A stretch of DNA of 64,000 bases from Mobula hypostoma (taxonomy: Eukaryota), in contig NC_086108.1 of assembly GCF_963921235.1 (NCBI RefSeq), forward strand, positions 70,186,001 to 70,250,000. The letters are read 5' to 3'. Each line of letters begins with the position of its first letter. Positions within the stretch are counted from its first letter, which is position 1. The notes beneath the pieces were generated by a model. That model was given only the letters and a program-made list of their open reading frames with translations, had not been told where the DNA came from and searched no databases. The position numbers and the translations under genes are program-made. Positions 8,449-54,297 of the stretch are shown in pieces.

Positions 8449-9729
8449 ATGTTTTCGTAGGGAAATGTACTATGGACGTGTGGTCGACGATTAGAGATCT
8501 CTTGCAGGATGTTAGGGATAAATTTGTCCCGGTGAGGAAGATAAAGAATGGTAGGGTGAAGGAACCGTGGGTGACAAGTGAGGTGGAAAATCTAGTCAGG
8601 TGGAAGAAAGCAGCATACATTAGGTTTAGGAAGAAGGATCAGATGGGTCTATTGAGGAATGTAGGGAAGCAAGAAAGGAGCTTAAGAAGGCTGAGAAGAG
8701 CAAGAAGGGGGCATGAGAAGGCCTTGGCCAGTAGGGTAAAGGAAAACCCCAAGGCATTCTTCAATTATGTGAAAGAAAAAAAGGATGACAGGAGTGAAGG
8801 TAGAACCGATTAGAGATAAAGGTGGGGAGATGTGCCTGGAGGCTGTGGAAGTGAGGGAGGTCCTCAATGAATACTTCTCTTCAGTATTCACCAATGAGAA
8901 GGAACTTGGTGGTGAGGACAATATGAGTGAGGTTGGTGTTCTGGAGCATGTTGATATTAAGGGAGAGGAGGATGTTGGAGTTGTTAAAATACATTAGGAT
9001 GGATAAGTCCCCGGAGCCTGACGGAATATTCCCCAGGCTGCTCTACGAGGTGAGGAAAGAGATTGCTGAGCCTCTGGCTAGACTCCTTATGTCCTCATTG
9101 TCCATGGGAATGGTACCGGAGGATTGGAGGGAGGTGAATGTTGTCCCCTTGTTCAAAAAAGGTAGTAAGGATAGTCCGGGTAATTATAGACCAGTGAGCC
9201 TTGTGTCTGTGCTGGGAAAGCTGTTGGAAAAGATTCTTAGAGATAGGATCTCTGGGCATTTAGAGAATCATGGTCTGATCAGAGACAGTCAGCATGGCTT
9301 TGTGAAGGGCAGATTGTGTCTAACAAGCCTGATAGAGTTCTTTGAGGAGGTGACCAGGCATATAGATGAGGGTAGTGCAGTAGATGTGATCTATATGGAT
9401 TTTAGTAAGGCATTTGACAAGGTTCCACATTCAGAAAGTCAAAAGGCATGGGATCCAGGGAAGTTTGGCCAGGTGGATTCAGAATTGGCTTGCCTGCAGA
9501 AGGCAGAGGGTGGTGGTGGAGGGAGTACATTCAGATTGGAGGATTGTGACTAGTGGTGTCCCACAAGGATCGGTTCTGAGACCTCTACTTTTCGTGATTT
9601 TTATTAACAACCTGGATGTGGGGGTAGAAGGGTGGGTTGGCAAGTTTGCAGACGACACAAAGGTTGGTGGTGGTGTAGATAGTGTAGAGGATTGTCAAAG
9701 ATTGCAGAGAGACATTGATAGGATGCAGA

Positions 9730-9980
9730 CAACAGGAATTCTGCAGATGCTGGAAATTCAAGCAACACACATCAAAGTTGCTGGTGAACGCAGCAGGCCA
9801 AGCAGCATCTATAGGAAGAGGCGCAGTTGACGTTTCAGGCCGAGACCCTTCGTCAGGACTAACTGAAGGAAGAGTGTGCTCAGTTAGTCCTGACGAAGGG
9901 TCTCGGCCTGAAACGTCAACTGCGCCTCTTCCTATAGATGCTGCTTGGCCTGCTGCGTTCACCAGCAACTTTGATGTGTG
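9730..9980. mobile_element. Fold-back non-autonomous Penelope-like element with hammerhead motifs (copy 1)
   Basis: 15 bp TSD TTGATAGGATGCAGA (9715-29 / 9981-95). 104 bp inverted arms 9763-9866 / 9880-9983. Contains the CTGACGA..GAAACGTC motif. Confidence 0.85.
9886..9921 (+). ncRNA. Minimal hammerhead ribozyme motif (mirror copy on the - strand in the left arm); closing pair of stem I mismatched
   Basis: AGTC-CTGACGA-AGG(GTCTCGG)CCT-GAAA-CG-TC-AACT. Predicted cleavage after 9917. Confidence 0.65.
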
Positions 9981-11733
9981 TTGATAGGATGCAGAAATGG
10001 GCTGAGAAGTGGCAGATGGAGTTCAACCCGGAGAAGTGTGAGGTGGTACACTTTGGAAGGACAAACTCCAAGGCAGAGTACAAAGTAAATGGTAGGATAC
10101 TTGGTAGTGTGGAGGAGCAGAGGGATCTGGGGGTACATGTCCACAGATCCCTGAAAGTTGCCTCACAGGTAGATAGGGTAGTTAAGAAAGCTTATGGGGT
10201 GTTAGCTTTCATAAGTCGAGGGATAGAGTTTAAGAGTCGCGATGTAATGATGCAGCTCTATAAAACTCTGGTTAGGTCACACTTGGAGTACTGTGTCCAT
10301 TTCTGGTCGCCTCACTATAGGAAGGATGTGGAAGCATTGGAAAGGGTACAGAGGAGATTTACCAGGATGCTGCCTGGTTTAGAGAGTATGCAATATGATC
10401 AGAGTTTAAGGGAGCTAGGGCTTTACTCTTTGGAGAGAAGGAGGATGAGAGGAGACATGATAGAGGTGTACAAGATAATAAGAGGAATAGATAGAGTGGA
10501 TAGCCAGTGCCTCTTCCCCAGGGCACCACTGCTGAATACATCAAGACATGGCTTTAAGGTAAGGGGTGGGAAGTTCAAGAGGGATATTAGAGGAAGGTTT
10601 TTTACTCAGAGAGTGGTTGGTGCGTGGAATGCACTGCCTGAGTCAGTGGTGGAGGCAGATACACTAATGAAGTTTAAGAGACTACTAGACAGGTATATGG
10701 AGGAATTTAAGGCGGGGGCTTATGTGGGAGGCAGGGTTTGAGGGTCGGCACAACATTGTGGGCCGAAGGGCCTGTTCTGTGCTGTTCTGTGTTCTATGAA
10801 AACATCAATAATTTCAGATATGCAGATGACACTGTTAATTGCAAGTACGGAGGAAGAACTACAAAACTTAATTGATATAATTGTTGAAAGTGCAAAAATG
10901 GGTCTATCAATCAATTGCAATAAGACAATGTATGGTGATATCCAAAACGAAGGAGAATCCTATCCGCAGGCTGAGAATAAATGGGGAAGACAAAACAAGT
11001 AAAGAACTTTTGCTACTTAGGAAGCTGGGTGACATCAGATGGCAGGTGCGACTTAGACATCAAAAGAAGAATAGCGATGGCAAAAGACACCTTTACGAGA
11101 ATGAAGAGTATACTGACCAGTACTAAACAAGGCATGACAACCCGCCTCAGAGCACAGAAATGTTATGTTTATCCAGTTATGTTATATGGCTCAGAATGTT
11201 GGACAATATCTAGTAACATGAGGAAACAAATTGTAGCAGCAGAGATGTGGTTTTTGAGGAGGATACAAAGAATATCATGGATGAAGGGAATATTTAACGA
11301 GGATGTCATGAACAGAACAAACACAAAAAGAGAAATAATGTATGAGATCATGAAAAGGCAATGTAACTTCATTGGACGTGATTAGGAAAGAGGAGTTAGA
11401 ATGCACAGTAATTATGGGAAAGATTGAAGGAAAGAAAGCAAGAGGAAGACAAAGACAAATGATGATGGAGACAGCAGCTAGAGAACTAGAAATAAATACC
11501 AATGAATTGATCCACTTGATCCGAAACAGGAATGGCAGTCAAAGCTCAAACTGGGCATGGCACCTGATGATGATGATTCTGCATTAGTACATCAGTAGAA
11601 AAGAACAAATTTTAGATTTCCAAACATTCAGTTTCCAAAAAAAATTACAGGGATTTTTTTCTATTTTGTTAAAGAAAGTAACATATTAAGTAATTAACCA
11701 ATTTTCAAATACAACTTGGTTACTTAGTAGGCA

Positions 11734-13303
11734 CAGTGCTTATGAAAAGTGTTCACCCTCTTGCAAGTTTTCATGTTTTACAGCATTGAATCACAGTGGA
11801 TTTAATTTGCCTTTTTTGACACTGACCAACAGAAAAAAGACTTTCGTGTGAAAGTGAGAACATACCTACGAAGTAATCTAAGTTAATTAGAAATATAAAA
11901 CAAAATAATTAATTCCATAAGTATTCCCCCCCCCACTTCACACGACACCAAATCATCACTATTGCAGCCAACTGCTTTTAGAAGTCACATAATTAGTTAA
12001 ATGGAGATCACCTGTGTGCAGTGGAGGTGTTTCAATTGATTGCAGTTTTTAAAAAAAAAACCTGTACCTGGAAGGTCTAACTGCTGGTGAGCTAGTATCC
12101 TGGCAAAAACTACACCAGGAAGACGAAAGAAAGCTCCAAACACCTCAAAGGTTATTGAAAAGCACAAGCCAGGAAATGTACACAAGAAGATTTCCAAGTC
12201 ACTGAATATCCCTTGGAGTCCAGTTGTTAATCATCAAGAAATGGAAAGAATGTGGCACAGCTGTAAATCTGTAGGACGTCCTCAAAAACTGAGTGACCGT
12301 GCAAGGTGGGGACTAGTGAGGGAGGCCACCAAGAGACCTGTGACAACTCTGGAGGAGTTATAAGCCTCAGTGGCTGAGGTGGGAGAGACTGCGCATTCAA
12401 CAACTGTTGTCCGGATGCTTCACCAGTCACAGCTTTATGGGAGAGTAGCAAAAAGAAAGCCACTGTTGTGGGGGGGTGGGGGGTGAAATCTCTCATGAAA
12501 TCTCGGTGAGAGTTTGCCAGAAGGCATGTGGGAACCTCTGAAGTCAGCTGGAAGAAGGTTCTGTAATCTGATGAAACCCAAATTGAGCTTTTTGACCATC
12601 AGACTAAACCTGATGTAAACCAAACACCGCATTTCATCAAAAACACACCATCTCTACCATGAAGCTTGGTGGTGGCTGCATCATGCTGGAAAGCTTATGA
12701 AGGTAGAGGGTAAAATGAATGCAGCAAAATACAGGGAAATCCTGGGAGGAAAACCTGATACAGTCTGCAAAAGAACTGCCACTCGGTATAAGATTCGTTT
12801 TCCAGCAAGACGATGACTCCCAAGCATAAAGCCATAGCTACAAGTGAATGGCTTAAAAACAGCAAAGTTAATGCCCTGGCAAAGCTAAGTCCGTGTCCAG
12901 ACCTCAGTCCATTTGGACTTGAAAAGGGCTGTTCACTCACAATCCCCATGCAATCTGAGAAAGCTGGAGCAGTTTTGTAAAGAAGAATGGGGCAAAATTG
13001 CAGTGTCCAGATGTGCAAAGCTGAGAGACCTATCCACAGACTCAAGGTTGTAATTCCTGCCAAGGGTGCATCTACTAAATACTGAATTGAAGGGGGTAAA
13101 TATTTGTGTAATCAATTATTTCGTGCTTTATATTTATAATTAATTTAGATCACTTTGTAGAGATCTGTTTTCACTTTGACACAAAAGTCTTTTTTGTTGA
13201 TTGGTGTCCAAAAAAAGCCAAATTAGATCCTCAGTGATTCACTGTTGTAAACCAATAAAACATGGAAACCTCCAAGGGGGATAAGTACTTTTTATAGGCA
13301 CTG
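11734..13303 (+). mobile_element. Second Tc1 transposon with long (about 200 bp) TIRs and a degenerate transposase, nested in the first
   Basis: Ends CAGTGCTTATGAAAAGTG / TACTTTTTATAGGCACTG-TA, with inverted similarity extending about 200 bp. Remnants KVIEKHK..KKISKSLNIPW, (W)SDETQIELF, GGGCIML and FQQD. Confidence 0.88.
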
Positions 13304-13950
13304 TATATAACCCTGAGCAAGATTAAATAAAGATGCTAATGATCAATGACATAATGAGTTGAATGAACTAAACTATTAACTGAAACAAAGTCTGGGCAAA
13401 GAACAACCAAACTAAAAGGCGGGGGTGTGACAGATGTGATAGTTCAACCTCCAAGTCATCAATTCTTATACTGATCATCCTGCATTGGCACGGTCTTTCT
13501 TGAGCAGAAATTTTACAGTAGGCAGGAGTTTCAAGTTGTGTTGTCCAAGCTCTTCTGATGAAGCACAAAGAAACTGGCAAGGTCGAGGATCAGAAATGCG
13601 GTGGTGGGCCACGGAAACTGAGTGCAGCAGGCAAGATACATCAAACTGACATCCCTTCTAAATCGTAAGGAGTGCAGCACTGCTATCCCAAAAACCACTG
13701 GAACCCAAGTAAACCCGTCTGCAGTATGGAGAGGTCTTATCTGAAGTGGTCTTCATGGAAGAGTTGCTAGCAAAAAGCCAGTCCTCTGAAGTGGAAACAA
13801 AGTCAAGAGAGTGACCTACACACAAAATCACAAGGACTGGGGTGTTGAACGATGGCAGCAAGTACTCTGGACTGACAAGTTAAAATTTGAAATATATGGC
13901 TCAAAGAAGGAGGCAGTTTGTCCGCAGAAGAGCTGGAGAGCACTGCATGA

Positions 13951-16900
13951 GGTGCGGGCAGCGTCGGTGCGGGAGCAAGGAGTGCTCGAGGTCGACGGAC
14001 GACTGGAGATTGGAGGATCAGAGGATCAGCCGTTGTAGGTAGGCTGAGGAAGATCGGCACTATCTAGGCATTACCTGAGGAGGAAGGTAAAACTGCGCAG
14101 GCGCGGGTGACGTCAGCGGCGAGCGCGGAGTTTAAAAAGAGGCCCACTTTCAGGTGCAGGCAGCGGAGTGTGCGGGAGCAGAGTGCTGGGCTTTGGCTCA
14201 GTGGGCTTCGGCGTAAGGAGGTCTTTGGTGAGTGGTAATCAGTTAACCTGAGTACGTGCTTGCAGAGGAAAAAAGGTAAGGTCAGTTGGTACTTTTTCAT
14301 TTATTCTGATTAATCTGGGATCAGGTAATGGGGGAGATAGAGCAGTGGTGTGCTCCGTATGCAGTATGTGGGAGGTCATGGTCAACGCAGTTGTCCCTGA
14401 TAACCACACCTGCAGAAGGTGCATCCAGCTGCAGCTCCTATCGGAGCGGGTTAGGGAATTGGAGCTGGATGAACTGCGGATCATTCGGGAGGCAGAGACA
14501 GAGATAGATGGTGGGGATGACCTACCAGGAACAAGTTGCAGTGGTCCTGTCTCTGGCACTGAGGTTGGACCCTCGACACAGAAGGGGAGGAGGGAAGAGA
14601 GGACAGCGGTAGTGATAGGGGATTCTGTAGTCGGGGGCAGATAGGAGATTTTGTGGGGGAGATCGGGAGTCTCGGATGGTATGTTGCCTCCCTGGTGCTG
14701 GGGTCTGGGACATCTCAGATCGGGTGCAGGTTATTCTCGAGAGGGAGGGCAAGAATCCAGATGTTGTGGTCCATGTAGGGACCAACGACGTGGGTAGGAA
14801 GAGTGAGGGGGTCCTGCGTAGTGAGTTCAGGGAGTTAGGTGCGAAGCTGAAGGGCAGGACCTCCAGGGTAACAATCTCAGGATTGCTACCTGTGCTACGT
14901 GCGAGTGAGACGAGGAACAGAAGGATTATACAGATCAATACGTGGCTGAGAGGATGGTGCAGGAGGGAGGGCTTCAGGTTTTTAGATAATTGGACTTTGT
15001 TCCAGGGAAGGTGGGATCTGTTCCGACGGGATGGTTTACACCTGAACTGGAGGGGTACTAACAGTCTTGCAGGAAAGTTTGCTAGTGCTGCTTGGGGGGG
15101 CGTTTAAACTAAATTTGCAGGGGGTAGGGATCCAGAATGTGAGAGAGGATAGCGAGATGAAGTATAAAAGACAGGTGGAGATTACACGGTTCTGGAATGT
15201 TAAGTGTGAAGTAGAGAAAGGTGAGGCGAACGAGTGATAAGGAGGATACATGTGCAGAGGGATGGTCTGACGGAGCATGGAGTTAAATGTGCAGAAAGAG
15301 TAAGTAAATTTAAGAAGGACAACAAAATTCAAGGGGCGTATAGCCCGGTGAGAGTTCGGGGAGCTGGGTTATGCACAATAGGCAGCGATTTAAACAGAGA
15401 GAGGAGAAATGGGTTAAAAATTCTATATCTGAATGCACGAAGTGTCAGAAATAAGGCGGATGAGCTTGAAGCTCAGGTGCGAATGGGTAACTATGATGTT
15501 GTTGGGATAACGGAGACATGGCTGCAGGGGGATCAGACCTGGGAATTGAATGTACAAGGGTATACGTGCTATCGAAGGGACAGAAAGGTGGGCAGAGGGG
15601 GTGGGGTGGCCCTGTTGGTGAGGAATGAGATTCAGTCCCTTGCAAGGGGAGACATAGAATCAAGAGAAGTAGAGTCAGTGTGGATAGAACTGAGGAACAG
15701 TGAGGGCAAAAAGACCCTAATAGGTGTTATCTACAGGCCCCCAAACAGTAGCATGGATATTGGGTGCAAGTTGAATAGGGAGTTAACAATGGCATGTGGC
15801 AAAGGAAATGTCGCAGTAGTTATGGGGGATTTCAACATGCAGGTGAACTGGGAAAATCAGGTTGGTACTGGACCCCAGGATAAGGAGTTTGTAGAGTGCC
15901 TACGGGATGCATTTTTGGAGCAGTTTGTACGAGAGCCGACCAGGGATAAGGCTATTCTGGATTTAGTGTTGTGCAATGAACAGGATTTGATAAGTGATCT
16001 TGAAGTAAAGGAGCCATTAGGAGGTAGTGACCATAATATGATAAGTTTTTATCTGCAAGTTGAGAGGGAGAAGGGCAGATCAGAAGTGCCAGTATTGCAG
16101 TTGAACAAAGGAGACTATGGAGCCATGAGGGAGGAGCTGGCCAAAGTTGACTGGTCAGATATCCTAGCAGAAAAGACAGTGGAACAGCAATGGCAGGTAT
16201 TCTTAGGAATAATGCACAAGGTGCAAAATCAATTCATCCCCCGGAGAAGGAAGGATTCAAAGGGGGGAAAGTGGCCACAGTGGTTGACAAAGGAAGTCAG
16301 AGATAGCATAGCATTAAAAAAGTAGTATAACAGAGCTAAGGTGAATGGGAAGATGGATGATTGGGAAATTTTTAAGGAGCAACAGAACTTAACTAAAAAG
16401 GCAATATGGGGAGAAAAAATGAGGTATGAACGCAAGCTAGCTAGGAATATAAAGGAGGATAGCAAAAGTTTTTTTCGGTATGTGAAGAGAAGGAAGATAG
16501 TTAAGAACAACATACATCAAAGTTGCTGGTGAACGCAGCAGGCCAGGCAGCATCTATAGGAAGAAGCGCAGTCGACGTTTCAGGCCGAGACCCTTCGTCA
16601 GGACCACGCCTGCAATCGCCGTTTCTTTGACTTTGTCATGTTTTTTTTTCTTTTCGTTCACCAGCAACTTTGATGTATGTTGCTTGAATTTCCAGCATCT
16701 GCAGAATTCCTGTTGTTTGTAGTTAAGAACAATGTTGGGCCCTTGAAGAATGAATTGGGAGAAATTGTTATGGGAAACAGAGAAATGGCAGACGAATTTA
16801 ATAAGTACTTTGGATCTGTCTTCACTAGGGAAGACACAAGCAATCTCCCAGATGTATGGATGGGCCAAGGACATAGGGTAACAGAGGAACTGAAACAGAT

Positions 16901-18535
16901 TGACATTAGGAAGGAAACGGTGATGAGTAGACTGATGGGACTGAAGGCTAACAAATCCCCAGGTCCAGATGGTCTGCATCCTAGGGTACTAAAGGAGGTG
17001 GCTCTGGAAAATGCGGATGCATTGGTGAACATTTTCCAATATTCCTTAGATTCAGGATCAGTTCCTGAGGATTGGCGAATGGCTAATGTTATCCCACTTT
17101 TTAAGAAAGGAGGGAGGGAGAAAACAGAGAACTATCGCCCTGTTAGCCTAACATCAGTAGTGGGGAAGATGCTAGAGTCCATTATTAAAGATGAAATAGT
17201 GGCATATCTTGATAGCAGTGATAAGATTGGGCCGAGCCAGCATGGCTTTACCAAGGGCAAATCATGCTTGACTAATCTGTTGGAGTTTTTCGAGGATATA
17301 ACCAGGAAGATAGACGCGTGAGATCCAGTGGATGTGGTGTACCTTGACTTTCAGAAGGCATTTGATAAGGTACCACATAGGAGATTGGTGGGTAAAATCA
17401 GAGCTCATGGCATTGGGGGGAGGATATTGACATGGATAGAAAACTGGTTGGCAGGTAGAAAGCAAAGGGTAGCAGTGAATGGGTGTTTCTCGGAATGGCA
17501 GGTGGTGACTAGTGGGGTGCCACAGGGCTCGGTATTGGGACCACAGCTGTTTACGATTTACGTCAATGATTTAGAGGAAGGCATTGTGAATAACATCAGC
17601 AAGTTTGCTGATGATACTAAGCTGGGTGGCAGTGTGACATGTGATGAGGATGTTAGGAGAATTCAAGGTGATTTGGATAGGCTGGGTGAGTGGGCAGAAA
17701 CTTGGCAGATGGCGTTTAATGTGAATAAGTGTGAGGTTATTCACTTTGGGAGCAAGAACAGGAAGGCAGATTATTATCTGAACGGTGTGGAGTTAGGTAA
17801 GGGAGAAATACAAAGAGATCTAGGAGTACTTGTTCATCAGTCTCTGAAGGTGAATGAACAAGTGCAGCAGGCAGTGAAGAAGGCTAATGGAATGTTGGCC
17901 TTTATTACAAAGGGAATTGAGTACAAGAGCAAGGAAATCCTTTTGCATTTGTACAGGGCCCTGGTGAGACCACACCTGGAGTATTGTGTGTAGTTTTGGT
18001 CTCCAGGGTTAAGGAAGGACATCCTGGCTGTGGAGGAGGTGCAGCGTAGGTTCACTAGGTTAATTCCTGGGATGTCTGGACTGTCTTACGCAGAGAGGTT
18101 AGAGAGACTGGGCTTGTACACGCTGGAATTAAGGAGATTGAGTGGGGGGGATCTGATTGAGACATATAAGATTATTAAGGGATTGGACAAGATAGAGGCA
18201 GGAAATATGTTCCAGATGCTGGGAGAGTCCAGTACCAGAGGGCATGGTTTAAGAATAAGGGGTAGGTCATTTAAGACAGAGTTGAGGAGGAACTTCTTCT
18301 CCCAGAGAGTTGTGGAGGTGTGGAACGCGCTGCCTCAGAAGGCAGTGGAGGCCAATTCTCTGGATGCTTTCAAGAAGGAGCTAGATAGGTATCCATGGAT
18401 AGGGGAATCAAGGGTTATGGGGATAAGGCAGGAACCGGGTATTGATAGTAGATGATCAGCCATGATCTCAGAATGGCGGTGCAGGCTCGAAGGGCCGAAT
18501 GGTCTACTTCTGCACCTATTGTTTATTGTCTATTG
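13951..18535 (+). mobile_element. Near full-length CR1 LINE: GC-rich 5' UTR, ORF1 (zinc finger plus SGNH esterase), ORF2 (APE endonuclease plus RT) with a few stops and frameshifts
   Basis: ORF1 motifs CSVCSMW..HTCRRC, VIGDS, VHVGTND and DGLHL. ORF2 motifs [34 protein letters not shown] and KFADDTK. (CTATTGT)n tail. Splits the Tc1 transposase. Confidence 0.93.
16511..16719. mobile_element. Fold-back Penelope-like hammerhead element (copy 2, opposite orientation to copy 1) with a 50 nt foreign spacer
   Basis: 13 bp TSD TAGTTAAGAACAA (16498-510 / 16720-32). Same sequence family as copy 1. Hammerhead motif on the - strand at 16570-16604. Confidence 0.85.
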
Positions 18536-20342
18536 AATGAGAGTCTGCAGCCAATAGTGAAGCGAGGTGGAGGTTCCCTGCAGATTTGGAGCTGCATTTC
18601 TGCAAATGGAGTTGGTAATCTGGTTAGAATTAATGGAATTCTCAGTGCTGAGAAGTACAAACAGATTTTCATCCATCATGCAATGCCATCAGGAAGGTGT
18701 TCCCAACTTCATTCTGCAGCAGGACAGTGACCCCAAACATGTGGCCAAGGTCGTAAAGCACCATGTTCAGGAGAAAGAAGAAGAAGGAGTTCTGCAACAG
18801 ATAGTATGGCCTCCACAGAGCCCTGATATCAACTTAATCAAAGCTGTCTGGGATTACCTGGAGAGACAGAAGCAAGCAAGACAGCAGAAGTCTAAACCTA
18901 CCAGCCAATTTTCTTACAAAATTGTAGGACAGCGTGTCTAAGAGAGTTGATGCAGTTTTAGTCACACTAAATATTGATTTCGTGTTTTTGTTTTATGGCT
19001 CTTTATAGTTTTTTTTGATATTTAGAAGTGTTTATTTTTATTTTTGAAACCATTCTTGCTTTACAGAATTTTTTTTTACGTGGCCAAGACTTTTGCACAG
19101 TACTGTTTATTCAATACTTAATTGTTTTATTTAATGCAAACTATTTCTTTGCTTATTGTCACCCTGTTCTGAATTTAAGTGTTCCTCTGAATTGTAGATA
19201 CTGATGTTCACTCATCATTCCTTAGTGAGCTGTTGTAATTTTGTTTTAAGTTGGTATGTCCTTTGAAAATTTGAAATGTAACTTAAACTTACATAATGAC
19301 AAATACGGACAACGTGAGGAACTGATTTAAAGAATGAAATAATTAAAGGATACAAATATTGTGCAGTTGGAAATTATAAAGAAATAGTTAGAGCTGGTCT
19401 CTATTTCTGTATTAAAGGAATAGAAAGTTGGGTTTACTAAGATATTTTTGGCTTATGGCAGACCATTGGCAGTAATGATACCAATAATGTATAAGACTTT
19501 CCAATACTTGATATACAAAAAAAAATCATTAGTGTTGATAAAGTAAGTTAGATTTGATTCAAGGGTTGGGACAAGTTAGCAAAAATATTGTAGTTGGAGA
19601 AGCACATTGCTGAGAAAGTTTTAACAATGGAGATAAATTGAAGCATTCCAGTCCAACTGTTAACCCAATCCTCATGGGCTGAAATGAAATTGTCGTTTAC
19701 TAATGGCTCAGAAGAAAACCACCAACAAGGTCTTCATTATGGGTCAATGCTTTCTTGACTTCACTACCTGTGCATTGTATTGATTTTTTAGTCATAGTGA
19801 GTTACAGGAGAGACAAATTTCATTGCTGACCCCTTAGCTTGATGTGCATTCAAACAAATGGGGTTAACAGCCTGGATGGAAAATGTTTTATTTCATAGTA
19901 TAATTTTATTTCTGTTGTCATTTTTCATTTTAATTAATCTATTTAATGTTTTTCATATCTGCTTATCAGAGACAGCTGTAAGTAACTGAAAAGGCTTTTG
20001 GAAAAATACCAAGTAATCTAGCCACTGAAACATGGTCAAGGACCAATTTTTGGGATGTCTGCAGCAATGAGGTTTGAAGTTGATCTGGACCAAGAGAGTG
20101 AAAAGCATTTTAGAAATAGCAATGAACAATGATTTAAAAAAAAATAAACAGAAGTTACTGGGGAGTCCAATCATGTGCTAAAAGTCTCCTCATGTATGTC
20201 AGGTGGTCTCTTTGGAACATCACATGTGATAAAGATTTGTCCAATTTCCTTTTTCGACTTTTTCTGGAGTTTTTCAAGACAGCCTCTGGTAGAAATGTTC
20301 TATGATGCCATTGTGATCTCTTTGAAATGTGTTTTCCTTAAT

Positions 20343-20968: not shown

Positions 20969-21069
20969 GAGTCACTACTTCTTTGATGTGCAATATTAGG
21001 ATATCCTCTTGTTCTTCAATAAAGTCCAAGTTTTACAATAAGAATACAGAATTTCTTACGAATGAGCTA

Positions 21070-22530: not shown

Positions 22531-22593
22531 CAGCAGTGCTAGAAAATAGAAATTTTTGCCACTTTCTTCAAGTTGAAGAACGGTAATAAAGTA

Positions 22594-23789: not shown

Positions 23790-23991
23790 GTGAACATGAT
23801 AAAAGATGACGGTCAGGTTATACATTTCAATAATCCCAAAGTGCAGGCCTCATTATCTGCCAATACATTTGCAATTACTGGTCACGCTGAGACAAAACAG
23901 ATAACAGAAATGCTTCCAGGCATTCTCAGCCAGCTTGGAGCTGACAGTCTGACAAGTCTTCGAAAATTAGCTGAGCAGTTGCCGCGGCAAG
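23790..23991 (+). CDS. BTF3L4: BTF3L4 coding exon (202 bp; [67 protein letters not shown]), NAC domain core
   Basis: Acceptor gcttacag|, donor G|gtacgt. In frame with the previous exon; ends in phase 1. Confidence 0.97.
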
Positions 23992-29375: not shown

Positions 29376-31312
29376 CTCTCCTAATGATTTATATTGCTCT
29401 TCTCATCAACACAGTAATATTGCTAACGTAAGCACCCCTAGTCTAAATGTTTGTTTTTTTTTGGAAAATAGAGAATTAACACAAGTAAAGGGAAAGATTT
29501 GGGAAAGGGATAAAAAAATGAAAAAATTAAGTAAATAAGTACATAGGGATTGGATAATTATGTCTGCGGGCAGGAACAAGCACGAACAAATTGGGATATA
29601 AACACCTACAATGGTTGGTATATAGGCTTGTATGCAACATTTTGGACCAGTGGAAATGGTCCAGAAGGGTTGTATGGAAACTATTATTACCATTTTTCTT
29701 AACAACTAATTTCATTACTTAGCCTAATAGGTTAGATTTACCACAGTACATAATTATCTATTTAAATGTTTATTTTCCTTTTATATCATCTCAATGTGTA
29801 CTTAAGAATGTATAAATAATTGTAGTTTTATACATATAAAAAAATGGAAAAGGTTATATGTGTGAAAAAAGTACATGATAATTGTGAATTCCTTATCCAA
29901 ATAAAAATAAAATTTAAAAAAAAAGAAAACATTTGGTGGATTTTCCAATTAATGAAAGCAGTAAAAATCAGCCTTCTCCCAAAGAAATATTAGATTTGTC
30001 CTGAACATTTGATCCAATTGGTTTTAACTACTGGCTGTAAATAGAGAATATTTAATGAAACCTGGTGAATTGCAAGAAGTATATATTGTAGGTTATGTTT
30101 GAAGAAAACCTTGGAACTGAAGAATTTTGTATTTCTATAATAGCTTTCATAGTCTTGTAGCACTTTAAAGCATTTCACTGTCAATCAACTTCTGCATTTT
30201 AAAACTTGTTTTATTGTTTATCTCACTTCTGATGAACAGTAATTGACCTGAGAGTTTCTCTTGCGACAGATGCTGCCTGGTTTGCTGCGTATTTGCAGTA
30301 ATCCGATTTTTTTTAAAGATTTCTGGCATCTGAACTTTTACCTTTGCATTTAATAATCAGATACGTTTTTAAAAAGGAGGATAAATATTGATCAGTATAT
30401 GGGCAAGCTTCCTAAATTCTGGATTAGTGCCTCGAGATCCAGTTCAGAAAGCAGGCACAGGCTCAATTTTATATTTTGTCTAAAAGACAACTGACATCCC
30501 CTCACTTTTTCATGATTGCTCTTTCATTTGTTGAAATTTGTAGTCCCTCACTTCATTTGTGCAGTAAAGCAAGGAGTCGACAAATTTAAACTGATAAAAG
30601 GGTAAATTTTGGATGGGTTTTGTGAAACTGCAAAATACCATCATAGTGTATTGTAATATTGGTCAGTGTTGAGATGAGGGTCTCATTAAAGTAAAGGAAA
30701 TGAAGATATTTTAAAAAATATTTTTGCTTTATGATCTGGAGCTATCCCAAAATTTTATGTGGCTTGTGAATCGCTTTTTCTCATCACAATTGATCAAATT
30801 CAAGTTCAATTGTCATTGTCAGTATCATATATGACTCTACTGAAATACACAAACTGTAGTGTGACATCAGCCAAATATTTTATTCCTTGAAGAATGGGGA
30901 ATAAATATTTTCCAGGACACCAGTGAATAACTTGCCCCCTCCTGTAAGTCATTTTGAAAAACAAATAAGGTCCTGTTATAATAACTTATTTAAAAAGAAA
31001 TAGGACGTAGTCTACCAATTGTGGATAGAAAGGTTATAGGTCAAAATTGAAAAAAAACTTAAGGTGCTTTTCTGTGCTTTGAAATTCAGTTGTCAACCTT
31101 CAGTGTTTCAGGAAGAAGGCCTCTCCAATCTCTCCTACAGTGCTGGTAACATTATTTAAGAAACATTGTTAATGTGTTGGAAGCAGTTCAAAGGTTTACA
31201 AGACTAATATTTGGAAAAGGCACTTTCTCTTGTGAGAAAATGTTGGACAAGTGAGGATTGTATTTCCTGTAATTTAACAAAGGAGACTTGATTGAAATAG
31301 TTAATGTTGTAA

Positions 31313-36719: not shown

Positions 36720-39700
36720 CCTCAGTGACACCAAAACAAGAGTTGACCATTGACTTCTGGAAGGCGGGCTTAACACACACCACCATCTGCATCAATTAAG
36801 CTGATGTGGCGATGGTTAAGAACTTTAAGCTTCTAGATGCAAGTATCGCTAAGAATTTCTCCTGGTTCAGCCACGTGGATGCTGTGGCCAATAAAGCATG
36901 TCAGCTCCTTTACTTCCTCAGAAGGCTAAGGAAATTTGTCAGTGTCTAATGATTCTCACCAATTTCTACAGATGCACTATAGAAATCATCCTACCTGAAT
37001 GCATCACAGCTTGATATGGCAACCTCACTACCCAAACCGCAAAAAATTATGAAGTAGTGAAAGCTATCCAGACTATTGTATTACAAAAAAATCAGCTTTC
37101 CCTCCATTACATAGAAACATAGAAAAGCTACAGCACAGTACAGGCCCTTCGGCCCATAAAGTTGTGCAGATCTTGTCCCTACCTTAGAAATTACTTGGCT
37201 TTCTTATAGCCCTCTATTTTTCTAAGCTCCATGTACCTATCCAAAAGTCTCTTAAAAGACCCTATTGTATCCGCCTCCACCACCGTTGCCGGCAGCCCAT
37301 TCCATGCACTCACCACTCTTGAGTAAAAAACTTACCCCTAACATCTCCTCTGTACCTACTCCCCAGCACCTTAAACCTGTGTCCTCTTGTGGCAACCATT
37401 TCAGCCCTGGGAAAAAGCCTCTGACTATCCACATGATCAACGCCTCTCATCATCTTATACGCCTCGGTCAGGTCACCTCTCATCCTCCGTCGCTCCAAGG
37501 AGAAAAGGCTGAGTTCACTCAACCTGTTCTCATAAGGCATGCTCCCCAATCCAGGCAACATCCTTGTAAATCTCCTCTGCACCATTTCTATGGCTTCCAC
37601 ATCCTCCCTGTAGTGAGGTGACCAGAACTGAGCACAGTACTCCAAGTGGGGTCTGACCAGGGTCCTATATAGCTGCAACATTACCTCTCGGCTCCTAAAT
37701 TCAATTCCACGATTGATGAAGGCCAATACACCATACGCCTTCTTAACCACAGAGTCAACCTGTGCAGCTGCTTTGAGTGTCCTATGGACTCGGACCCCAA
37801 GATCCCTCTGATCCTCCACACTGCCAAGAGTCTTACCATTAATACTATATTCTGTCATCATATTTGACCTACCAAAATGAACCACTTCACACTTACCTGG
37901 GTTGAACTCCATCCGCCACTTCTCAGCCCAGTTTTGCATCCTATCAATGTCCCGCTGTAAATCTTGCAGCCCTCCACACTATCCACAACACCTCCAACCT
38001 TTGTGTCATCAGCAAACCTACTAACCCATCCCTCCACTTCCTCATCCAGGTCATTTATAAAAATCATGAAGAGAAGGGGTCCCAGAACAGATCCCTGAGG
38101 CACACCACTGGTGACCGACCTCCATGCAGAATATGACTCGTCTGCAACCACCCTTTGCCTTCTGTGGGCAAGCCAGTTCTGGATCCACAAAGCAATGACC
38201 CCTTGGATCCCATGCCTCCCTACTTTCTCAATAAGCCTGGCATGGGGTACCTTATCAAATGCCTTGCTGAAATCCATATACACTACATCTACTGCTCTTC
38301 CTTCATCAGTGTGTTTCGTCACATCCTCAAAAAATTCAATCATGCTCGTAAGGCACGACCTGCCCTTGACAACGCCATGCTGACTATTCCTAATCATATT
38401 ATACCTCTCCAAATGTTCATAAATCCTGCCTGTCAGGATCTTCTCCATCAGCTTACCAACCACTGAAGTAAGACTCACTGGTCTATAATTTCCTGCACTG
38501 TCTCTACCCCCTTTCTTGAATAAAGGAACAACATCCACAACCCTCCAATCCTTCAGAACCTCCCCCGTCCCCATTGATGATGCAAAGATCATCGCCAGAG
38601 GCTCAGCAATCTCCTTCCTCGCCTCCCACTGTAGCCTAGGGTACATCTCATCCGGTCCCGGTGACTTATCCAACTTGATTCTTTCCAAAAGCTCTAGCAC
38701 ATCCTCTTTCTTAATATCTACATGCTCAAGCTTTTCAGTCTGCTGCAAGTCATCACTACAATCACTAAGATCCTTTTCCACAGTGAATACTGAAGTAAAG
38801 TATTAATTTAGTACCTCTGCTATTTCCTCCAGTTCCATACACACGTTCCCACTGTCATGCTTGATAGGTCCTATTCTTTCACGTCTTATCCTCTTGCTGT
38901 TCACATACTTGCAGAATGCTGTGGGGTTTTCTTTAATCCTGCCCGCCAAGACCTTCTCATGGCCCCTTCTAGCTCTCCTAATTTCCTTCTTAAGCTCCTT
39001 CCTATTAGCCTTATAATCTTCTAGATCTCTAACATTACCTAGCTCTCTGAACCTTTTGTCAGCTTTTATTCTTGACTAGATTTATTACAGCCTTCGTACA
39101 CTACGGTTCCTGTACCCTAGCATAACTTCCCTGTCTCATTGGAACGTACCTATGCAGAACTCCACACAAATATCCCCTGAACATCTGCCACATTTCTTCC
39201 GTACTTTTCCCTGAGAACATCCATTTCCAATTTAAGCTTCCAATTTCCTGCCTGATAGCCTCATAATTCCCCTTACTCCAATTAAATGCTTTACTAACTT
39301 GTCTGTTCCTATCTCTCTCCAATGCTATTGTAAAGGAGATAGAATTATGATCACTGTCTCCAAAATGCTCTCCCACTGAGAGATCTGACACCTGACTGGG
39401 TTCATTTTCAATACCAAATCAAGTACAGCCTCTCCTCTTGTAGGCTTATCTACGTATTGTGTCAAGGTACCTTCCCGAACACACCTAACAAACTCCATCC
39501 CATCTAAACCCCTTGCTCAAGGGAGATGCCAATCGATATTTGGGAAATTAAAATCTCCCATCATGACAACTCTGTTATTATTACACCTTTCCAGGATCTG
39601 TTTCCCTACCTGCTCCTCGATATCCCTGTTACTATTGGGTGGCCTATAAAAAAACACCCAGTAAAGTTATTGACCCCTTCCTGTTCCTAACCTCCACCCA

Positions 39701-42877: not shown

Positions 42878-42924
42878 ATCTCGTTGAAAATTTTGATGAA
42901 GCGTCAAAGAATGAAGCCAACTAA
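42878..42924 (+). CDS. BTF3L4: BTF3L4 last coding exon ((D)LVENFDEASKNEAN*)
   Basis: Acceptor tttttatag|, conserved C-terminus LVENFDEASKNEAN, TAA at 42922-42924. Confidence 0.96.
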
Positions 42925-44806
42925 AAGCTGCTGGCAGATTATAGACTGGGATAAAGACTGTACCAACGAGGAAACTTATTCCAAAGTTTTACTATATTAA
43001 AAGTGAAAAATCACAAGTTTGCAAATACAGTGAACTAAGGCATTTTGTATTTTAATGATGCTGAATACTCAGCATCTTTCAATTGGTTGAAATCACTTGT
43101 TTGCATTTTGCACTTAAAAACAAAATCCTTTGGTCTGAAATTTGTAAGACTGAGATTCCATCAAAGCAATCTAAATAGATCGCAAATGAATTGGAGTGAG
43201 CAAGCTCATGAAGGTCTTATTTAAGGTTTTCCCTCATGACATGCAAATAAAATAGATTGATTAACTTCTTGTATATTGTGTGAATAATTTCATTTTGTTT
43301 GAACATGATATGCTGTTATAATTACATTGGATTTATTTTCATCATTAACTTGGTGTTTTTAATTTTTGTTATTCTCTAAAGCACATTTTCCTGCTGATCC
43401 CCAGGAATGGTAAAACAGTTCTGTCATTCTGTTAATTTTCAGATTGATGAACGTTTACAAGGTCAGCTTATACAGTTAGCAATTTATCTGAGTCTCTGCC
43501 GAGGTATATGACTCCACTGAAGTTTCTACATTTTGTTTAGGCAATAACTCACTAATTCCATTGGTTGAATCCTAAAATATCTTCCATTTTTGATGAGTTC
43601 AAAGTGGTTCATTCTTTAAGGACATTGTTTCTAAGAAAGATCTTAGTTAACAGTACACGTAACGTCCTGGAAATTGAGTCAGGAGTGGTGCCTTTAATGT
43701 TCTAGATGAGTGAAACAGGCCAATTAACTGTATTGCTCAACTTGAGATCTATCTAGTTAGAATGATGGTGATCATTATCAGTTTCAAGTAGTGCATTTAA
43801 ATTTCTGGTAAAGGGTGTGCATATTCTGTATTGGTTCTGTAAAATGTAGTACTCCAGTATTGGTTCTATAGTCAAGAGCAACGAGACAAGGCAGCTACAA
43901 TTATTGGTCAAATGAAATAACAAAGCCCAAGTGCCTTTCAAATGGAGACTTTTCTATTTTAATTGATCCACTATTATGTTCAGTTATTTGATACTAATTA
44001 TCTAATTCCAGTTCATTTTTAATATTATCCTGTATGTTCTTTACACTTTACACAGTTTACATAAATATATATATAAAATATGAATCACATCGGTATTGTA
44101 TAGCCTATGGATCTCTAATCAATAATTGTGTATTTCTGCACAATCTGAGTTCTATTTTGCAGGTCAGTTGTACATGAGTAAAATGCATATTAAGTATCTG
44201 AAGGACTCCTCTAATATTGTCTGTTGAACAGATTGATTACTTTTTCTAACTAATTGGTAACTAATACTACTGTGAATTACATATGTATTATAATCGAAGC
44301 ATAGTAAATTGCACAAGCCACCAGATTTGTCTTTTTTAATATCGTATTTACAAGTTAAATTAGGTTTCTAGATACATTGCAGAAACTATTATTTATGTTG
44401 TAAATATTGGTTTAGATTGAAAATAGGCCTTTAGTTCTGAAGTATGTGTGACTGAAACAATTTCTAAAATGTGCAGGTTAATTTGATAACATGAGCTTTT
44501 GTAAAATCCGGCTTCTTGATATCACGAATGAGCTTTGGCTTTTCTTGAGCAATGTTCCTTTCTATTCAAGTTCATCTAAGTAAAGGTAAGTTTTTAAATA
44601 CAAAGTCCATATTTGTTTTTATATCAATTACAATAGATGGAACAGAAATGATCTCATCCTAATAATTCAGTGTTTCAGTAGATATAGTTATTTCTACCTT
44701 GGTACATGTGACAATAATAAACCGATTTACCTGCATAAAGCCTGCATAAACAATTAGAAAATAGTATTGTAATTTCACTGTGAACATTTAGTATTATCTA
44801 AATAAA
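42925..44806 (+). other. BTF3L4: Probable BTF3L4 3' UTR with candidate polyadenylation signals
   Basis: AT-rich sequence after the stop codon with no recognisable TE. AATAAA at 43246-43251, 44716-44721 and 44801-44806. The true 3' end cannot be determined from sequence. Confidence 0.55.
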
Positions 44807-51400: not shown

Positions 51401-52196
51401 TCTACAATACTCGTATTTCATAAGAAGTCATTTTGTGAATCAAAGTGAGGTTAAAAGTTTCAAGGTTTTATGATCTGCCATAGTTGCTGTGGGTCAAATA
51501 ATTGTTGTATACATTCAATTAACCCTTTTATTCAAATGTTTAGCAGTGCAAAAAAAATCTGGATTTACAGCCATATCAGTAACTTTCATGAAAAGTGATT
51601 CAAATGTTCTTCCAATGTTTATTGATTACACTACCGATTTTTATTTAGCAATGTGTACAATCCTTTCAGGAATTAAGTTATCAAGAATAATTACATTTTA
51701 GAGTCTTAGCCATTTGGGCAAATCCTATGTAATAGAATTAATTTTTGTAGTTCACAGTATAATACTGTAAATTTTTGATTATAAGGGATAGGAATCTATG
51801 AAATTACATAATTTTCTGTACATTGAAATTTTTATTATATGAAAATTAATTAAATATAAAGGTAGTTATCAGATTACAGATTGCGAGTTTGATAATTTAA
51901 CCACCTAAAAAAAAAGTTCCAGTGCTTTTCCTCCATTTCAAATTAACTTGTTCTGTAAAAACAACTGCAGCAGCACTTCAGACTGGTGTAATCGTTCCAG
52001 CCCTTCATGTTAATCAAATTATTTTCCAATGAGTACCTGACACACTGCATTCCTCCAGGATTTTGTGTGTTGCTCCAGGTTTCCAGCATCTGCAGTCTTC
52101 CAATGAATTTTTGATCTTGGTTATATATGAAGCCAAGGTTAGGGTTCTCACATTGGAATGTAAAACCTAGAATCAAGCTACTTATTTCCTGACTCA

Positions 52197-52640
52197 AACA
52201 GGAGGAGATCTGCAGATGCTGGAAATTCAAGCAACACGCACAAAAAATGCTGGTGAACGCAGCAGGCCAGGCAGCATCTATAGGAAGAGGTACAGTCAAT
52301 GTTTCAGGCCGAGACCCTTCATCAGGACTTATCTGAAAGAAGAGATAGTAAGAGATTTCAAAGTGGGAGATCTGAAATGATAGAAGACAGGAGGGTTCCC
52401 CCCCCCCACCTTTCTTTCTCCCTAGGCCTCCTGTCCCATGATCCTCTCCCTTCTCCAGCCGTGTATCCCTTTTGCCAATCAACTTTCCAGCTCTTAGCTC
52501 CATCCCTCCCCCTCCCACTTTCAAATCTCTTACTATCTTTTCTTTCAGTTAGTCCTGACGAAGGGTCTTGGCCTGAAACATCGACTGTACCTCTTCCTAT
52601 AGATGCTGCCTGGCCTGCATTCACCAGCATTTTTTGGGTG
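52197..52640. mobile_element. Fold-back Penelope-like hammerhead element (copy 3, longest and more diverged)
   Basis: 14 bp TSD TATTTCCTGACTCA (52183-96 / 52641-54). Inverted arms of about 130 bp around a pyrimidine-rich spacer. Hammerhead motif on + at 52551-52586. Confidence 0.85.
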
Positions 52641-53001
52641 TATTTCCTGACTCAGCTGGACATGCTGACTCATTTGAGAGTCAACGAGTTTGTGAATAGG
52701 AGTAATCAGGTTACTGCCCCATAACAATCTAGTGACTCATTGATTTCCTGTCATTCATTTTGAAAACCAACAATTTTGAACATTGTAACTTTTGGGGGAA
52801 GTCATTTCACTCTTTTCAATACCCCCCCCAAAAAAATAAATATTTTAATTCCCTCTGTTTTATTTGCCATGTCTGATCAAGTTATGTGATGATCTTCCTG
52901 GGATTTTTTTAATGTTCCTGAAACTAGTGATTAAAAATATATTTCAGCAAGAAAGCACCTCTTTCAAATTTTCATGATCTCTTTCACTTTACTACATCAC
53001 T

Positions 53002-53330
53002 TGTGTATCCCATCCACTACATAATGTACTGGATGGACACAGGAGTACATTCAGCCAGAGACTCATTCCACCAAGATGCAACACTGAGCGTCATAGGAAG
53101 TCATTCCTGCCTGTGGCTATCAAACTTTACAACTCCTCCCTTGGAGGGTCAGACACCCTCAGCCAATAGGCTGGTCCTGGACTTATTTCCATCTGGCATA
53201 ATTTACATATTATTTAATTATTTATGGTTTTATATTGCTATATTTATACTCTATTCTTGGTTGGTGCAACTGTAACGAAACCCAATTTCCCTCGGGATCA
53301 ATAAAGTATGTCTGTCTATCTTATCTATCT
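53002..53330 (+). mobile_element. Rex-Babar/L2-type LINE 3' end
   Basis: RKSFLPVAIKLYN-like C-terminus, caataaagta followed by a (TCTA/G)n tail, possible TSD atcact. Confidence 0.65.
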
Positions 53331-53629
53331 ATCACTGTGCTGGAAACTTGCTCTATGATAATCCTGGCCATGAATTGCAATAGTATGTTAATTTTGGCAT
53401 TCTCAATCGCTTAATATTTTAAATAGGTATCCTTTTCATAACTTCCCATTCATTGGTGTAACCCATCATCTACCTTCCTTGCAAATATGTTTGCTAAATA
53501 GTCATTTTATATTTCATCATATCTTCTGTCTTTATGGATAATTTTTTTCTCCTTGCTAACTGCTAACCTTTTATACATTTATAGAATGCTTTAAGATTCA
53601 ATGCAATGACATTGCAAATATTTTCACAT

Positions 53630-53798
53630 CAAAGTTGCTGGTGAATGCAGCAGGCCAGGCAGCATCTCTAGGAAGAGGTACAGTCGACGTTTCGGGCCGA
53701 GACCCTTCGTCAGGACTAACTGAAGGAAGAGCTAGTAAGAGATTTGAAAGTAGGAGGGGGAGGGGGAGATCTGCAGAATTCCTTGTGTTTACGTTTTT
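53630..53798. mobile_element. Penelope-like hammerhead element (copy 4, second arm reduced to the terminal extension)
   Basis: 14 bp TSD AAATATTTTCACAT (53616-29 / 53799-812). One arm plus the inverted terminus atctgcagaattccttgtgttt. Confidence 0.85.
53682..53717 (-). ncRNA. Minimal hammerhead ribozyme motif, best-preserved copy
   Basis: The minus strand reads AGTC-CTGACGA-A-GGG(TCTCGG)CCC-GAAA-CG-TC-GACT: stem I AGTC/GACT, core boxes intact, palindromic ACGT in place of helix III. Confidence 0.72.
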
Positions 53799-54297
53799 AA
53801 ATATTTTCACATTCTTGCTTTGGCTTTTTATTTACTTTTCCATTTTTTCCCATGGGTTTCACAACCTTGATAGTTATTAACTGAATAGTGTTCCTGATAT
53901 TTGTTGCAATCTTTTTTGTTTTCTTATAACATGCTTAAAGGACACATAATACTGAATTCTTTACCAACAGTTTCTCACTGTGGTTTTGTTTGTCAATTGT
54001 CTTTCCTTTAGTATTGAATTTATCTTCACTGAAATCTAGGATATTAGAGAAGTTATTAAATGTATTTTTTTTAACCAAATAGATCATGCTATCATCTCTG
54101 TTTGTTATGGGGTCCTTTTGTATTGTATTATTTAATAAGTTTGAGTAATTATTTACTTCATATTCAGAATGGTCAGTTGCTGAATCACTCTGGATGTAGT
54201 GGTCCAGAAAATTATCTTGTATAGTCTCCAAAAATTTACTACATTTCTGACCTGATGCATCCTTCTATTCCTAATTGATGTGAAAACTAATGTTTCC

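What the first reader, a model, noticed from the sequence alone, without database searches (positions are those of the whole stretch)
9715..53812. Family of short fold-back mobile elements carrying minimal hammerhead ribozymes (non-autonomous Penelope-like / retrozyme-like system)
Seen: four TSD-flanked insertions (9730-9980, 16511-16719, 52197-52640, 53630-53798; TSDs of 15, 13, 14 and 14 bp) share one non-coding sequence arranged as inverted arms. Each contains (A)GTC-CTGA(C/T)GA-stem-GAAAC(G/A)TC-(G/A)ACT. Degenerate relatives lie near 4940, 30230, 48900, 52050, 56445 and 61180. Established: CUGANGA..GAAA..UH is the hammerhead core; minimal hammerheads with a palindromic tetranucleotide replacing helix III occur in the terminal repeats of Penelope-like elements and are thought to cleave as dimers; PLE insertions often show inverted terminal repeats. 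Inference: this is a recently active, protein-free family mobilised in trans by a PLE RT/GIY-YIG enzyme. Two copies sit inside well-preserved CR1s, so they are the youngest layer of that stack.
Basis: partly seen in the sequence, partly recalled or inferred. Interest (0 to 1): 0.8.

Follow-up and report, generated by a model that had tools for sequence, protein, structure and literature searches.

The report
Ray Penelope stumps with minimal hammerheads
These four short insertions are back-to-back pairs of truncated ends of one very abundant repeat, likely a Penelope-like jumping gene of a ray; they carry a tiny hammerhead-ribozyme motif already described for such elements, so they are likely ordinary leftovers and not a new self-mobile family.

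Summary
The sequence observation holds. There are four insertions with exact TSDs of 15, 13, 14 and 14 bp and six minimal-hammerhead motifs (0 in 100 shuffles). They are not copies of one fold-back element. Each joins two pieces of one linear unit head-to-head. The eight arms have eight different 5' ends (-152 to +113 from the motif) and none starts at the cut site. In 4 of 4 insertions only one arm carries a ~35-50-nt tail. One insertion has non-overlapping arms, and two have a motif on one arm only. This is the published layout of truncated endonuclease-positive Penelope-like (PLE) insertions. The repeat is very abundant and occurs in ray protein models (Mobula, Hemitrygon). Catalytic CpG sites decay like flanking CpGs, so the copies look dead. 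Two insertions are shared at the same sites with a second organism. I could not link the repeat to a PLE ORF: no genome is held and the window has none. The scan already noted this on other DNA, including this genome. Verdict: new member of a known kind; low interest.

The parts
9715..9729 (.). Insertion A, left TSD (15 bp)
9730..9874 (-). A left arm: unit from -14 (relative to the motif's first base) through the tail
9825..9860 (-). Minimal hammerhead motif; stem I mismatch next to the cut site
9875..9879 (.). 5-nt filler at the head-to-head junction of A
   Evidence: loose end behind 9874 differs
9880..9983 (+). A right arm: from -6, no tail, 104/104 identical to the left arm; last 3 nt shared with the TSD
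9886..9921 (+). Minimal hammerhead motif, sense to the host gene, masked in the inter-arm duplex
9981..9995 (.). A right TSD
16498..16510 (.). Insertion B, left TSD (13 bp)
16508..16604 (-). B left arm: starts at +2 of the motif behind a G, no tail; 3 nt shared with the TSD
16570..16605 (-). Minimal hammerhead motif, core and palindrome intact
16605..16654 (.). 50-nt filler of unknown origin between the arms of B
   Evidence: no real match elsewhere in the window
16655..16719 (+). B right arm: from +71 (downstream of the motif) through the tail; no hammerhead
16720..16732 (.). B right TSD
52183..52196 (.). Insertion C, left TSD (14 bp)
52197..52396 (-). C left arm: from about -67 through the tail
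52294..52329 (-). Minimal hammerhead motif, decayed (palindrome lost, U17)
52399..52640 (+). C right arm: from about -152, no tail; longest piece of the parent's pyrimidine-rich upstream sequence in the window
52551..52586 (+). Minimal hammerhead motif, palindrome lost
52641..52654 (.). C right TSD
53616..53629 (.). Insertion D, left TSD (14 bp)
53625..53771 (-). D left arm: from -54, no tail; 5 nt shared with the TSD
53682..53717 (-). Minimal hammerhead motif, the most canonical of the six (G10.1-C11.1, palindrome, C17)
53769..53801 (+). D right arm: distal part of the tail only (from +113); 3-nt microhomology with the left arm, 3 nt shared with the TSD
   Evidence: (loose end before 9734 gives the tail's continuation)
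53799..53812 (.). D right TSD
61190..61277 (-). Decayed copy of a second, older subfamily; core broken
   Evidence: linker matches the loose-end consensus
30197..30335 (+). Decayed relative with tail; core broken
52036..52101 (+). Decayed relative, 3' part and tail only
4934..4990 (-). Decayed relative, fragment
56429..56490 (+). Possible decayed relative (marginal score)

Best explanation
Each of the four insertions is a head-to-head pair of differently truncated pieces of one linear repeat unit inside one 13-15-bp target duplication, and that unit is likely the 3' terminal repeat (pLTR) of an endonuclease-positive Penelope-like retrotransposon in a ray genome. Shown: the two-arm layout, eight different 5' ends, a tail on one arm only, the motif, and the great abundance of the repeat. 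Inferred mechanism (about 0.55 on its own): the PLE enzyme nicks both target strands 13-15 nt apart. Each 3' end primes reverse transcription on element RNA that the ribozyme has not cut, one at the outer start site (giving the tail) and one about 35-50 nt further in. Both cDNAs abort early and are joined by end-joining with a microhomology or filler. The fold-back is therefore built anew at each insertion and is not the mobile unit. The hammerhead is a passenger: it is conserved in the source lineages, where it probably works only as a dimer or with protein help, but it decays neutrally in these copies and is masked in A and C.
For: Exact TSDs of variable length. Arm 5' ends at about -152, -67, -54, -14, -6, +2, +71 and +113; the predicted cut lies after +32 and 0 of 8 arms start there. 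Tail on exactly one arm in 4 of 4 insertions; inner 3' ends at +93 to +98, outer ends at +131 to +145. All four inner junctions differ: 5-nt filler, 50-nt filler, 2-nt filler, 3-nt microhomology. Arms of one insertion share minority alleles: A is 104/104 identical, including an allele carried by at most 17% of laid depth, and B is 28/28, including a 13% allele. This layout (5' truncation, adjacent inverted truncated copy, one-sided 30-40-bp tail, head-to-head polarity, TSD) is described for EN+ PLEs (PMC8557442 and PMC3846280, passages). The anole PLE protein nicks and extends both strands and has two RT start sites that bound the tail. It uses uncut RNA, and its ribozyme cuts only with protein (PMC11167929). 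The motif has the min-HHR marks of PMC4209133: an extra base after A9 and a palindromic 15.1-16.1 stretch. Contigs of a second subfamily align over 9824-9860 and break at both edges of the motif in 4 of 4 runs. Summed contig depth on the motif is about 6.5 million against about 11 on unique flanks in run X1 (not a copy number).
Against: No RT/GIY-YIG ORF was linked to the unit here. No genome is held. Pfam found no GIY-YIG in 150 of the window's 151 frames of >=75 aa. Three protein searches with translated arms returned only exonised pieces in ray gene models or noise. The link rests on anatomy, literature and unchecked scan notes from this genome. n is 4; one tailed arm in 4 of 4 has p = 1/16 under independent choice. 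Identical arms could also come from gene conversion. The variant shared by C's arms is at a CpG and could be coincidence. No compensatory stem change was seen, only a one-sided G-C to G-U change. The 5' half of the core could not be scored reliably.
Confidence: 0.8

Rival explanations
1. A true non-autonomous family: a short RNA starting at or just before the hammerhead (from a pLTR promoter) is copied in trans by the PLE enzyme, SINE- or retrozyme-like.
For: B's left arm starts at +2 of the motif behind a G. Many contigs stop aligning at the motif's first base (453, 314, 234 and 56 loose ends behind 9860, with consensus agreement of only 0.42-0.47). In-trans mobilisation by pLTRs is documented (PMC3846280), as are PLE-derived retrozymes. 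Scan notes report fixed starts in other windows (unchecked).
Against: 5 of 6 motif-bearing arms run upstream of the motif to different lengths, up to ~150 nt. The loose ends at 9860 also contain a second subfamily's flank and cannot be separated from true starts. There is no tandem array. A fixed start could equally be the cap site of the autonomous element's own RNA.
Confidence: 0.12
2. Same parent element, but the inversion arises by self-priming or template switching (for example on an antisense template), not by priming at both nicks.
For: Proposed for rotifer PLEs from palindromes at inverted junctions (PMC3846280). It explains the allele sharing between arms directly. C's junction is a short G/C hairpin. 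This confidence concerns the mechanism step only, within the best explanation.
Against: D's second arm is tail-only and not complementary to the first, and B's arms are separated by 50 unrelated bases. A simple snap-back gives neither. In vitro both strands are extended.
Confidence: 0.3
3. The fold-back RNA itself is the transposing unit.
For: A and C form long hairpins (-226 and -243 kcal/mol on the + strand). A scan note reports one such case in another genome (e1-9141068, unchecked).
Against: Four different junctions. D does not fold back. In A and C the motifs are fully masked (stem probabilities 0.0), so a ribozyme would have no role.
Confidence: 0.04
4. MITE of a DNA transposon.
For: Short, non-coding, partly palindromic, flanked by TSDs.
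Against: TSD length varies from 13 to 15 bp. The ends are asymmetric, with a one-sided tail and ragged termini. There is no shared interior. The motif matches PLE ribozymes.
Confidence: 0.01

Closest known systems
5'-truncated, inverted-pLTR insertions of EN+ Penelope-like elements (Penelope/Poseidon, Neptune; e.g. Pen2a_Av). PMC8557442 and PMC3846280, passages
   Same: Variable 5' truncation, adjacent inverted copy in head-to-head polarity, tail on one end only, one TSD around the whole unit, insertion into other retroelements.
   Different: Both arms are so short that no ORF is left. TSDs are 13-15 bp against 8-10 bp in the rotifer examples read. The clade was not determined and the ORF link was not shown here.
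[quoted passage not shown]
   Same: CUGANGA and GAAA cores, extra base after A9, G10.1-C/U11.1, no helix III, palindromic 15.1-16.1, 4-bp helix I, mostly solitary motifs from truncated elements, some pairs on opposite strands 100-700 bp apart.
   Different: Helix II is 4 bp, shorter than the 7-8 bp of the Schistosoma motifs. Shark, skate and three genus names gave no hit in supplement file 2 (file 1 could not be searched). Abundance looks far above the 4,000-9,000 motifs reported for coelacanth and Xenopus.
Poseidon PLE of Anolis (PAc). Frangieh et al. 2024, PMC11167929, parts 1-2 of 4
   Same: Two 3' end sites bounding a tail; both target strands used; template uncut; hammerhead in the pLTR.
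   Different: In PAc the ORF starts in stem II; no such start was found here. PAc was tested biochemically; this element was not.
Non-LTR retrozymes. Li, Clavereau, Pollet 2026, bioRxiv 10.64898/2026.07.22.740005, parts 1-3 of 5; supplements not seen
   Same: Non-coding, type I hammerhead, related to PLE pLTRs, reported in one chondrichthyan genome.
   Different: Retrozymes are defined as tandem arrays with a ribozyme in each unit. These are dispersed head-to-head stumps with no tandem unit.

Membership tests
min-HHR of metazoan PLEs | CUGANGA ... GAAA ... UH core in type I topology | tested here: met
   6 motifs; 0 in 100 shuffles; one has U17
min-HHR of metazoan PLEs | Extra base between A9 and 10.1; G10.1-C11.1 pair | tested here: met
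   Extra A in 6 of 6. G-C in 1 of 6 and G-U in 5 of 6. C is the majority in runs X10 and X16 (76%) and a minority in X1 (22%)
min-HHR of metazoan PLEs | Palindromic 15.1-16.1 in place of helix III | tested here: met
   4 of 6; lost in both arms of C
min-HHR of metazoan PLEs | Conservation above flanks among family lineages | tested here: inconclusive
   A second subfamily aligns exactly over the motif, and there is no variant >=5% at A13, A14, A15.1 or U16.1 in 4 runs. But core CpGs decay like other CpGs, no compensatory change was seen, and the 5' core is under-reported
min-HHR of metazoan PLEs | Self-cleavage as a dimer or with protein | not testable with these tools
   Secondary-structure models favour an inactive rod in 5 of 6 monomers; the modelled active dimer is 17-22 kcal/mol above the dimer minimum
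EN+ Penelope-like element insertion | Unit is the terminal repeat of an RT + GIY-YIG ORF | tested here: inconclusive
   No genome; none in 150 of 151 window frames; protein searches blank; only unchecked scan notes
EN+ Penelope-like element insertion | Variable 5' truncation | tested here: met
   8 arms, 8 different 5' ends
EN+ Penelope-like element insertion | Adjacent inverted truncated copy, head-to-head | tested here: met
   4 of 4
EN+ Penelope-like element insertion | 30-40-bp tail at one end only | tested here: met
   4 of 4; about 35-50 nt between inner and outer ends
EN+ Penelope-like element insertion | TSD around the whole unit | tested here: met
   15, 13, 14, 14 bp; empty site for A
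Non-LTR retrozyme | Tandem array with a hammerhead in at least two consecutive units | tested here: not met
   None of TRF's 8 rows involves the unit; criterion
Non-LTR retrozyme | Abundant circular RNA | not testable with these tools
   Only contigs were available
MITE | Fixed TSD length and symmetric terminal inverted repeats | tested here: not met
tRNA-derived SINE | Fixed 5' head of Pol III origin | tested here: not met
   5' ends vary; ARAGORN finds 0 genes (a weak test for decayed heads)

The most novel reading that the evidence does not exclude
The pairing of one tailed and one tail-less arm with shared minority alleles is the genomic footprint of a dimeric Penelope enzyme priming both target strands on the same uncut RNA species at its two start sites. 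In addition, a share of the ~10^5 ray copies come from short capped transcripts that begin at the hammerhead's first base and move in trans, even when the ribozyme is already broken (as in A). Ray genomes would then be a very large natural library for reading out the unsolved PLE integration step and for testing whether the ribozyme is needed at all.
Probability: 0.25. Interest if true: 0.45.

Novelty: new member of a known kind. Interest (0 to 1): 0.17.

Why it matters
As a finding it is ordinary: minimal hammerheads in PLE terminal repeats, inverted truncated copies and one-sided tails are all published, and the scan has already noted the same thing in many shark and ray genomes. The residual value is mechanistic. 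The copies show in vivo what the anole PLE does in vitro: two 3' start sites, both strands used, uncut RNA as template. At this copy number a census could decide between double priming and self-priming, and show whether ribozyme-broken sources still transpose. Six paper searches listed no paper whose title or abstract start describes this ray family. Repbase and Dfam could not be checked, so it may be catalogued there.

Tried and rejected
Whole-genome copy count and partner search: not possible, no genome is held. Rfam: no hammerhead hit; its three weak hits on copy D lie far below the gathering scores. Motif scans of viral, metagenome and prokaryote-genome contigs, run in the hope of host-derived contigs with long flanks: 0 matches each. 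Pfam on 150 of 151 frames of >=75 aa (62040-62279 was left out at the 150 limit): no GIY-YIG. A regex for recalled PLE peptide motifs in six frames printed no hit. Protein searches with translated arms: 2 hits among 8 candidates, both Mobula gene models with an exonised piece; 4 hits, the same two plus two judged noise; 1 hit among 183, a Hemitrygon gene model. None gives an ORF link. The high-depth stretch 52950-53340 between C and D was tested as a possible PLE ORF end and rejected; it translates like a LINE C-terminus. RNA: no RNA holder is listed. Runs guessed as RNA hold the repeat, but contigs show no strand, level or cut ends, so they were not used as evidence. Scan look-ups by sequence and by nearby place returned nothing. 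The variant shared by C's arms was considered as evidence of a ribozyme-dead source and dropped, because each arm has several private CpG changes. The hand-made energy line had a length error (100000 values); it was redone. Lunse et al. (PMC5785218) is not held; I know it only through a passage of PMC6765202.
Full report
Setting. The window is vertebrate DNA packed with LINE and DNA-transposon remnants. It holds a BTF3-family gene on the + strand, with NAC-domain exons near 4290-4350 and 23790-23990 and a last exon at about 42879-42925 (the name BTF3L4 is recalled). Insertions A and B lie in its long intron; C and D lie beyond its 3' end. Translated arms hit gene models of Mobula hypostoma, M. 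birostris and Hemitrygon akajei that have exonised the repeat, so the host is probably a myliobatiform ray (inference). No genome is held.

Observation. Six motifs have the form stem I (4 bp), CUGAYGA, an extra A, a 4-bp stem II with a 4-nt loop, GAAA, a four-base palindrome, H17, stem I. A pattern search gives 6 matches against 0 in 100 shuffles. This is the minimal hammerhead of Cervera and De la Pena (PMC4209133; I read parts 1-2 of 4). D is the most canonical motif. A has a mismatch at the stem I pair next to the cut site in both arms, and C has lost the palindrome in both arms. Rfam does not detect the motif. Four of the six named relatives beat 600 background segments; 56445 is marginal and 48900 is not distinguishable from background. 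A's flanks map contiguously onto another copy of the host LINE at 37782-38100, with the TSD sequence once, which is an empty site. B's flanks give a weaker match to one other copy. A and B are later than their host LINEs, which in turn interrupt an RTE-like and a Tc1-like remnant (family labels recalled).

Anatomy. Turned to the hammerhead strand, all eight arms are pieces of one linear unit. Each insertion has two arms with their 5' ends facing each other and their 3' ends at the TSDs. Counting the motif's first base as +1, the 5' ends lie at about -152, -67, -54, -14, -6, +2, +71 and +113. The predicted cut is after +32. No arm starts there, and all six motif-bearing arms run across it, so the template was uncut or religated (inference). 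The 3' ends fall in two groups, +93 to +98 and +131 to +145, and each insertion has one of each (4 of 4). The contigs' loose-end consensus confirms that D's right end is family sequence. Arm ends overlap the TSD by 0-5 nt. The four inner junctions are all different: 5-nt filler (A), 50-nt filler (B), 2-nt filler (C), 3-nt microhomology (D). A's arms are 104/104 identical and B's 28/28; C's differ at 7 positions plus gaps over ~125 nt; D's do not overlap. A mobile fold-back family would repeat its junction and length. These do not.

Family evidence from reads. In run X1 the summed contig depth is about 6.5 million on D's motif and about 11 on unique flanks. That is not a copy number, but with 6 motifs in 64 kb it points to the order of 10^5 copies (inference; an unchecked scan note gives 156,000). 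Contigs join C's right end and D's left end to their unique flanks in both organism A (X1) and organism B (X5), with 6 differences in 449 and 3 in about 310 letters in X5. C and D therefore predate that split. X1 may be the window's own source. On A's left arm, laid on four organisms, 34 variant rows reached 5% in at least one run. There is none at A13, A14, A15.1 or U16.1. The core CpG positions C15.2 and G16.2 change in 7-10% of depth in X1, X10 and X16, like the loop and flank CpGs (5-11%), so inserted copies decay neutrally. No row is listed for 9844-9875, but the C7-to-U change seen in C is also missing there, so that half is under-reported and proves nothing. In 4 of 4 runs many contigs align over 9824-9860 and break at both edges of the motif, with a different linker on the 3' side that matches the decayed copy at 61190-61277. 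That suggests the motif was kept while two subfamilies diverged around it. The only frequent stem change is one-sided (G-C to G-U), so covariation is not shown.

Function of the ribozyme here. Folding puts 5 of 6 monomers into a rod in which the core pairs with the palindrome. The modelled active dimer lies 17-22 kcal/mol above the dimer minimum (secondary structure only). With flanks, the four motifs in A and C are fully paired in the inter-arm duplex. The motif in B is antisense to the host gene. None is expected to cut the host pre-mRNA (inference). This agrees with the low activity of min-HHRs even as dimers, the protein dependence of the anole ribozyme and 1 active element of 9 tested in Xenopus.

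Mechanism. PMC8557442 and PMC3846280 (passages) describe EN+ PLE insertions as heavily 5'-truncated, with an adjacent inverted truncated copy, usually head-to-head, and a 30-40-bp tail often at one end only. PMC11167929 (parts 1-2 of 4) shows a PLE protein, predicted to be a dimer, that nicks and extends both strands, starts at two internal sites bounding the tail and uses uncut RNA. The simplest reading is priming at both nicks, one at each start site, with early abortion and end-joining. The rival is self-priming on an antisense template (PMC3846280); D's tail-only arm and B's filler fit it poorly. Allele sharing between arms fits either model, or later gene conversion.

What is not shown. 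I found no ORF linked to the unit: none in 150 of 151 window frames, none through three protein searches, and no host-derived contigs in three collections. Unchecked scan notes on this genome describe longer GIY-YIG-bearing copies with the same layout and 14-bp TSDs. I treat them as leads, not support, and could not confirm that they concern the same subfamily (searches returned nothing). My reading before opening them was already PLE stumps at 80%.

Verdict. It works like, and by anatomy probably is, the stump end of an EN+ PLE; formal membership lacks the ORF test. It fails the retrozyme and MITE tests. A short in-trans RNA is not excluded for part of the family (B starts at +2 behind a G), but 5 of 6 motif-bearing arms extend further upstream. 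The scan found the same kind in at least 17 genomes. New member of a known kind; interest 0.17.

Noticed in passing
window 16605-16654: 50-nt CpG-containing filler inside insertion B, with no real match in the window; on the minus strand it has an A-run, an ATG and a short basic frame. It may be a captured piece of another RNA or DNA.
   Followed up: partly
window 52950-53340: A second very high-copy repeat between C and D. It translates like the C-terminus of a Rex/Babar-type LINE (label recalled) and is preceded by a short inverted piece at 52999-53046.
   Followed up: partly
window 9756-9983: A perfect 104-bp hairpin in the intron of the BTF3-family gene; a likely double-stranded-RNA substrate if transcribed. 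The arms show no editing scar.
   Followed up: partly
window 9860 to 9829 (table 5c): A low-depth joint at the motif's first base appears in three organisms (X1, X10, X16). If direct, it would be a 35-nt tandem hammerhead dimer at a rare locus; the table does not give the joint's kind.
   Followed up: no
window 5527-18941: Nested stack: an RTE-like remnant split by two CR1-like copies, a Tc1-like remnant split by a near full-length CR1-like copy with a GDSL-esterase ORF1, and PLE stumps A and B inside those.
   Followed up: partly
window 24204-29930 and 54298-54891: Near full-length L1/Tx1-like LINE (ORF1, endonuclease, RT; few breaks); its 3' end recurs at 54298-54891 with 89-95% identity.
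   Followed up: no
window 2520-2780: Another palindromic element (70-nt arms, 90% complementary) next to a transposase-like frame at 2755-3168; unrelated to the hammerhead family, probably DNA-transposon-derived.
   Followed up: no
proteins P0002, P0003, P0007: Ray gene models (STARD3NL isoform X3, an uncharacterised protein, quaking-B isoform X2) contain translated pieces of this repeat, hammerhead included. These are either real exonisation or annotation artefacts.
   Followed up: partly
window 61560-62100: GC-rich stretch near the window's end, probably the promoter region of the next gene.
   Followed up: no
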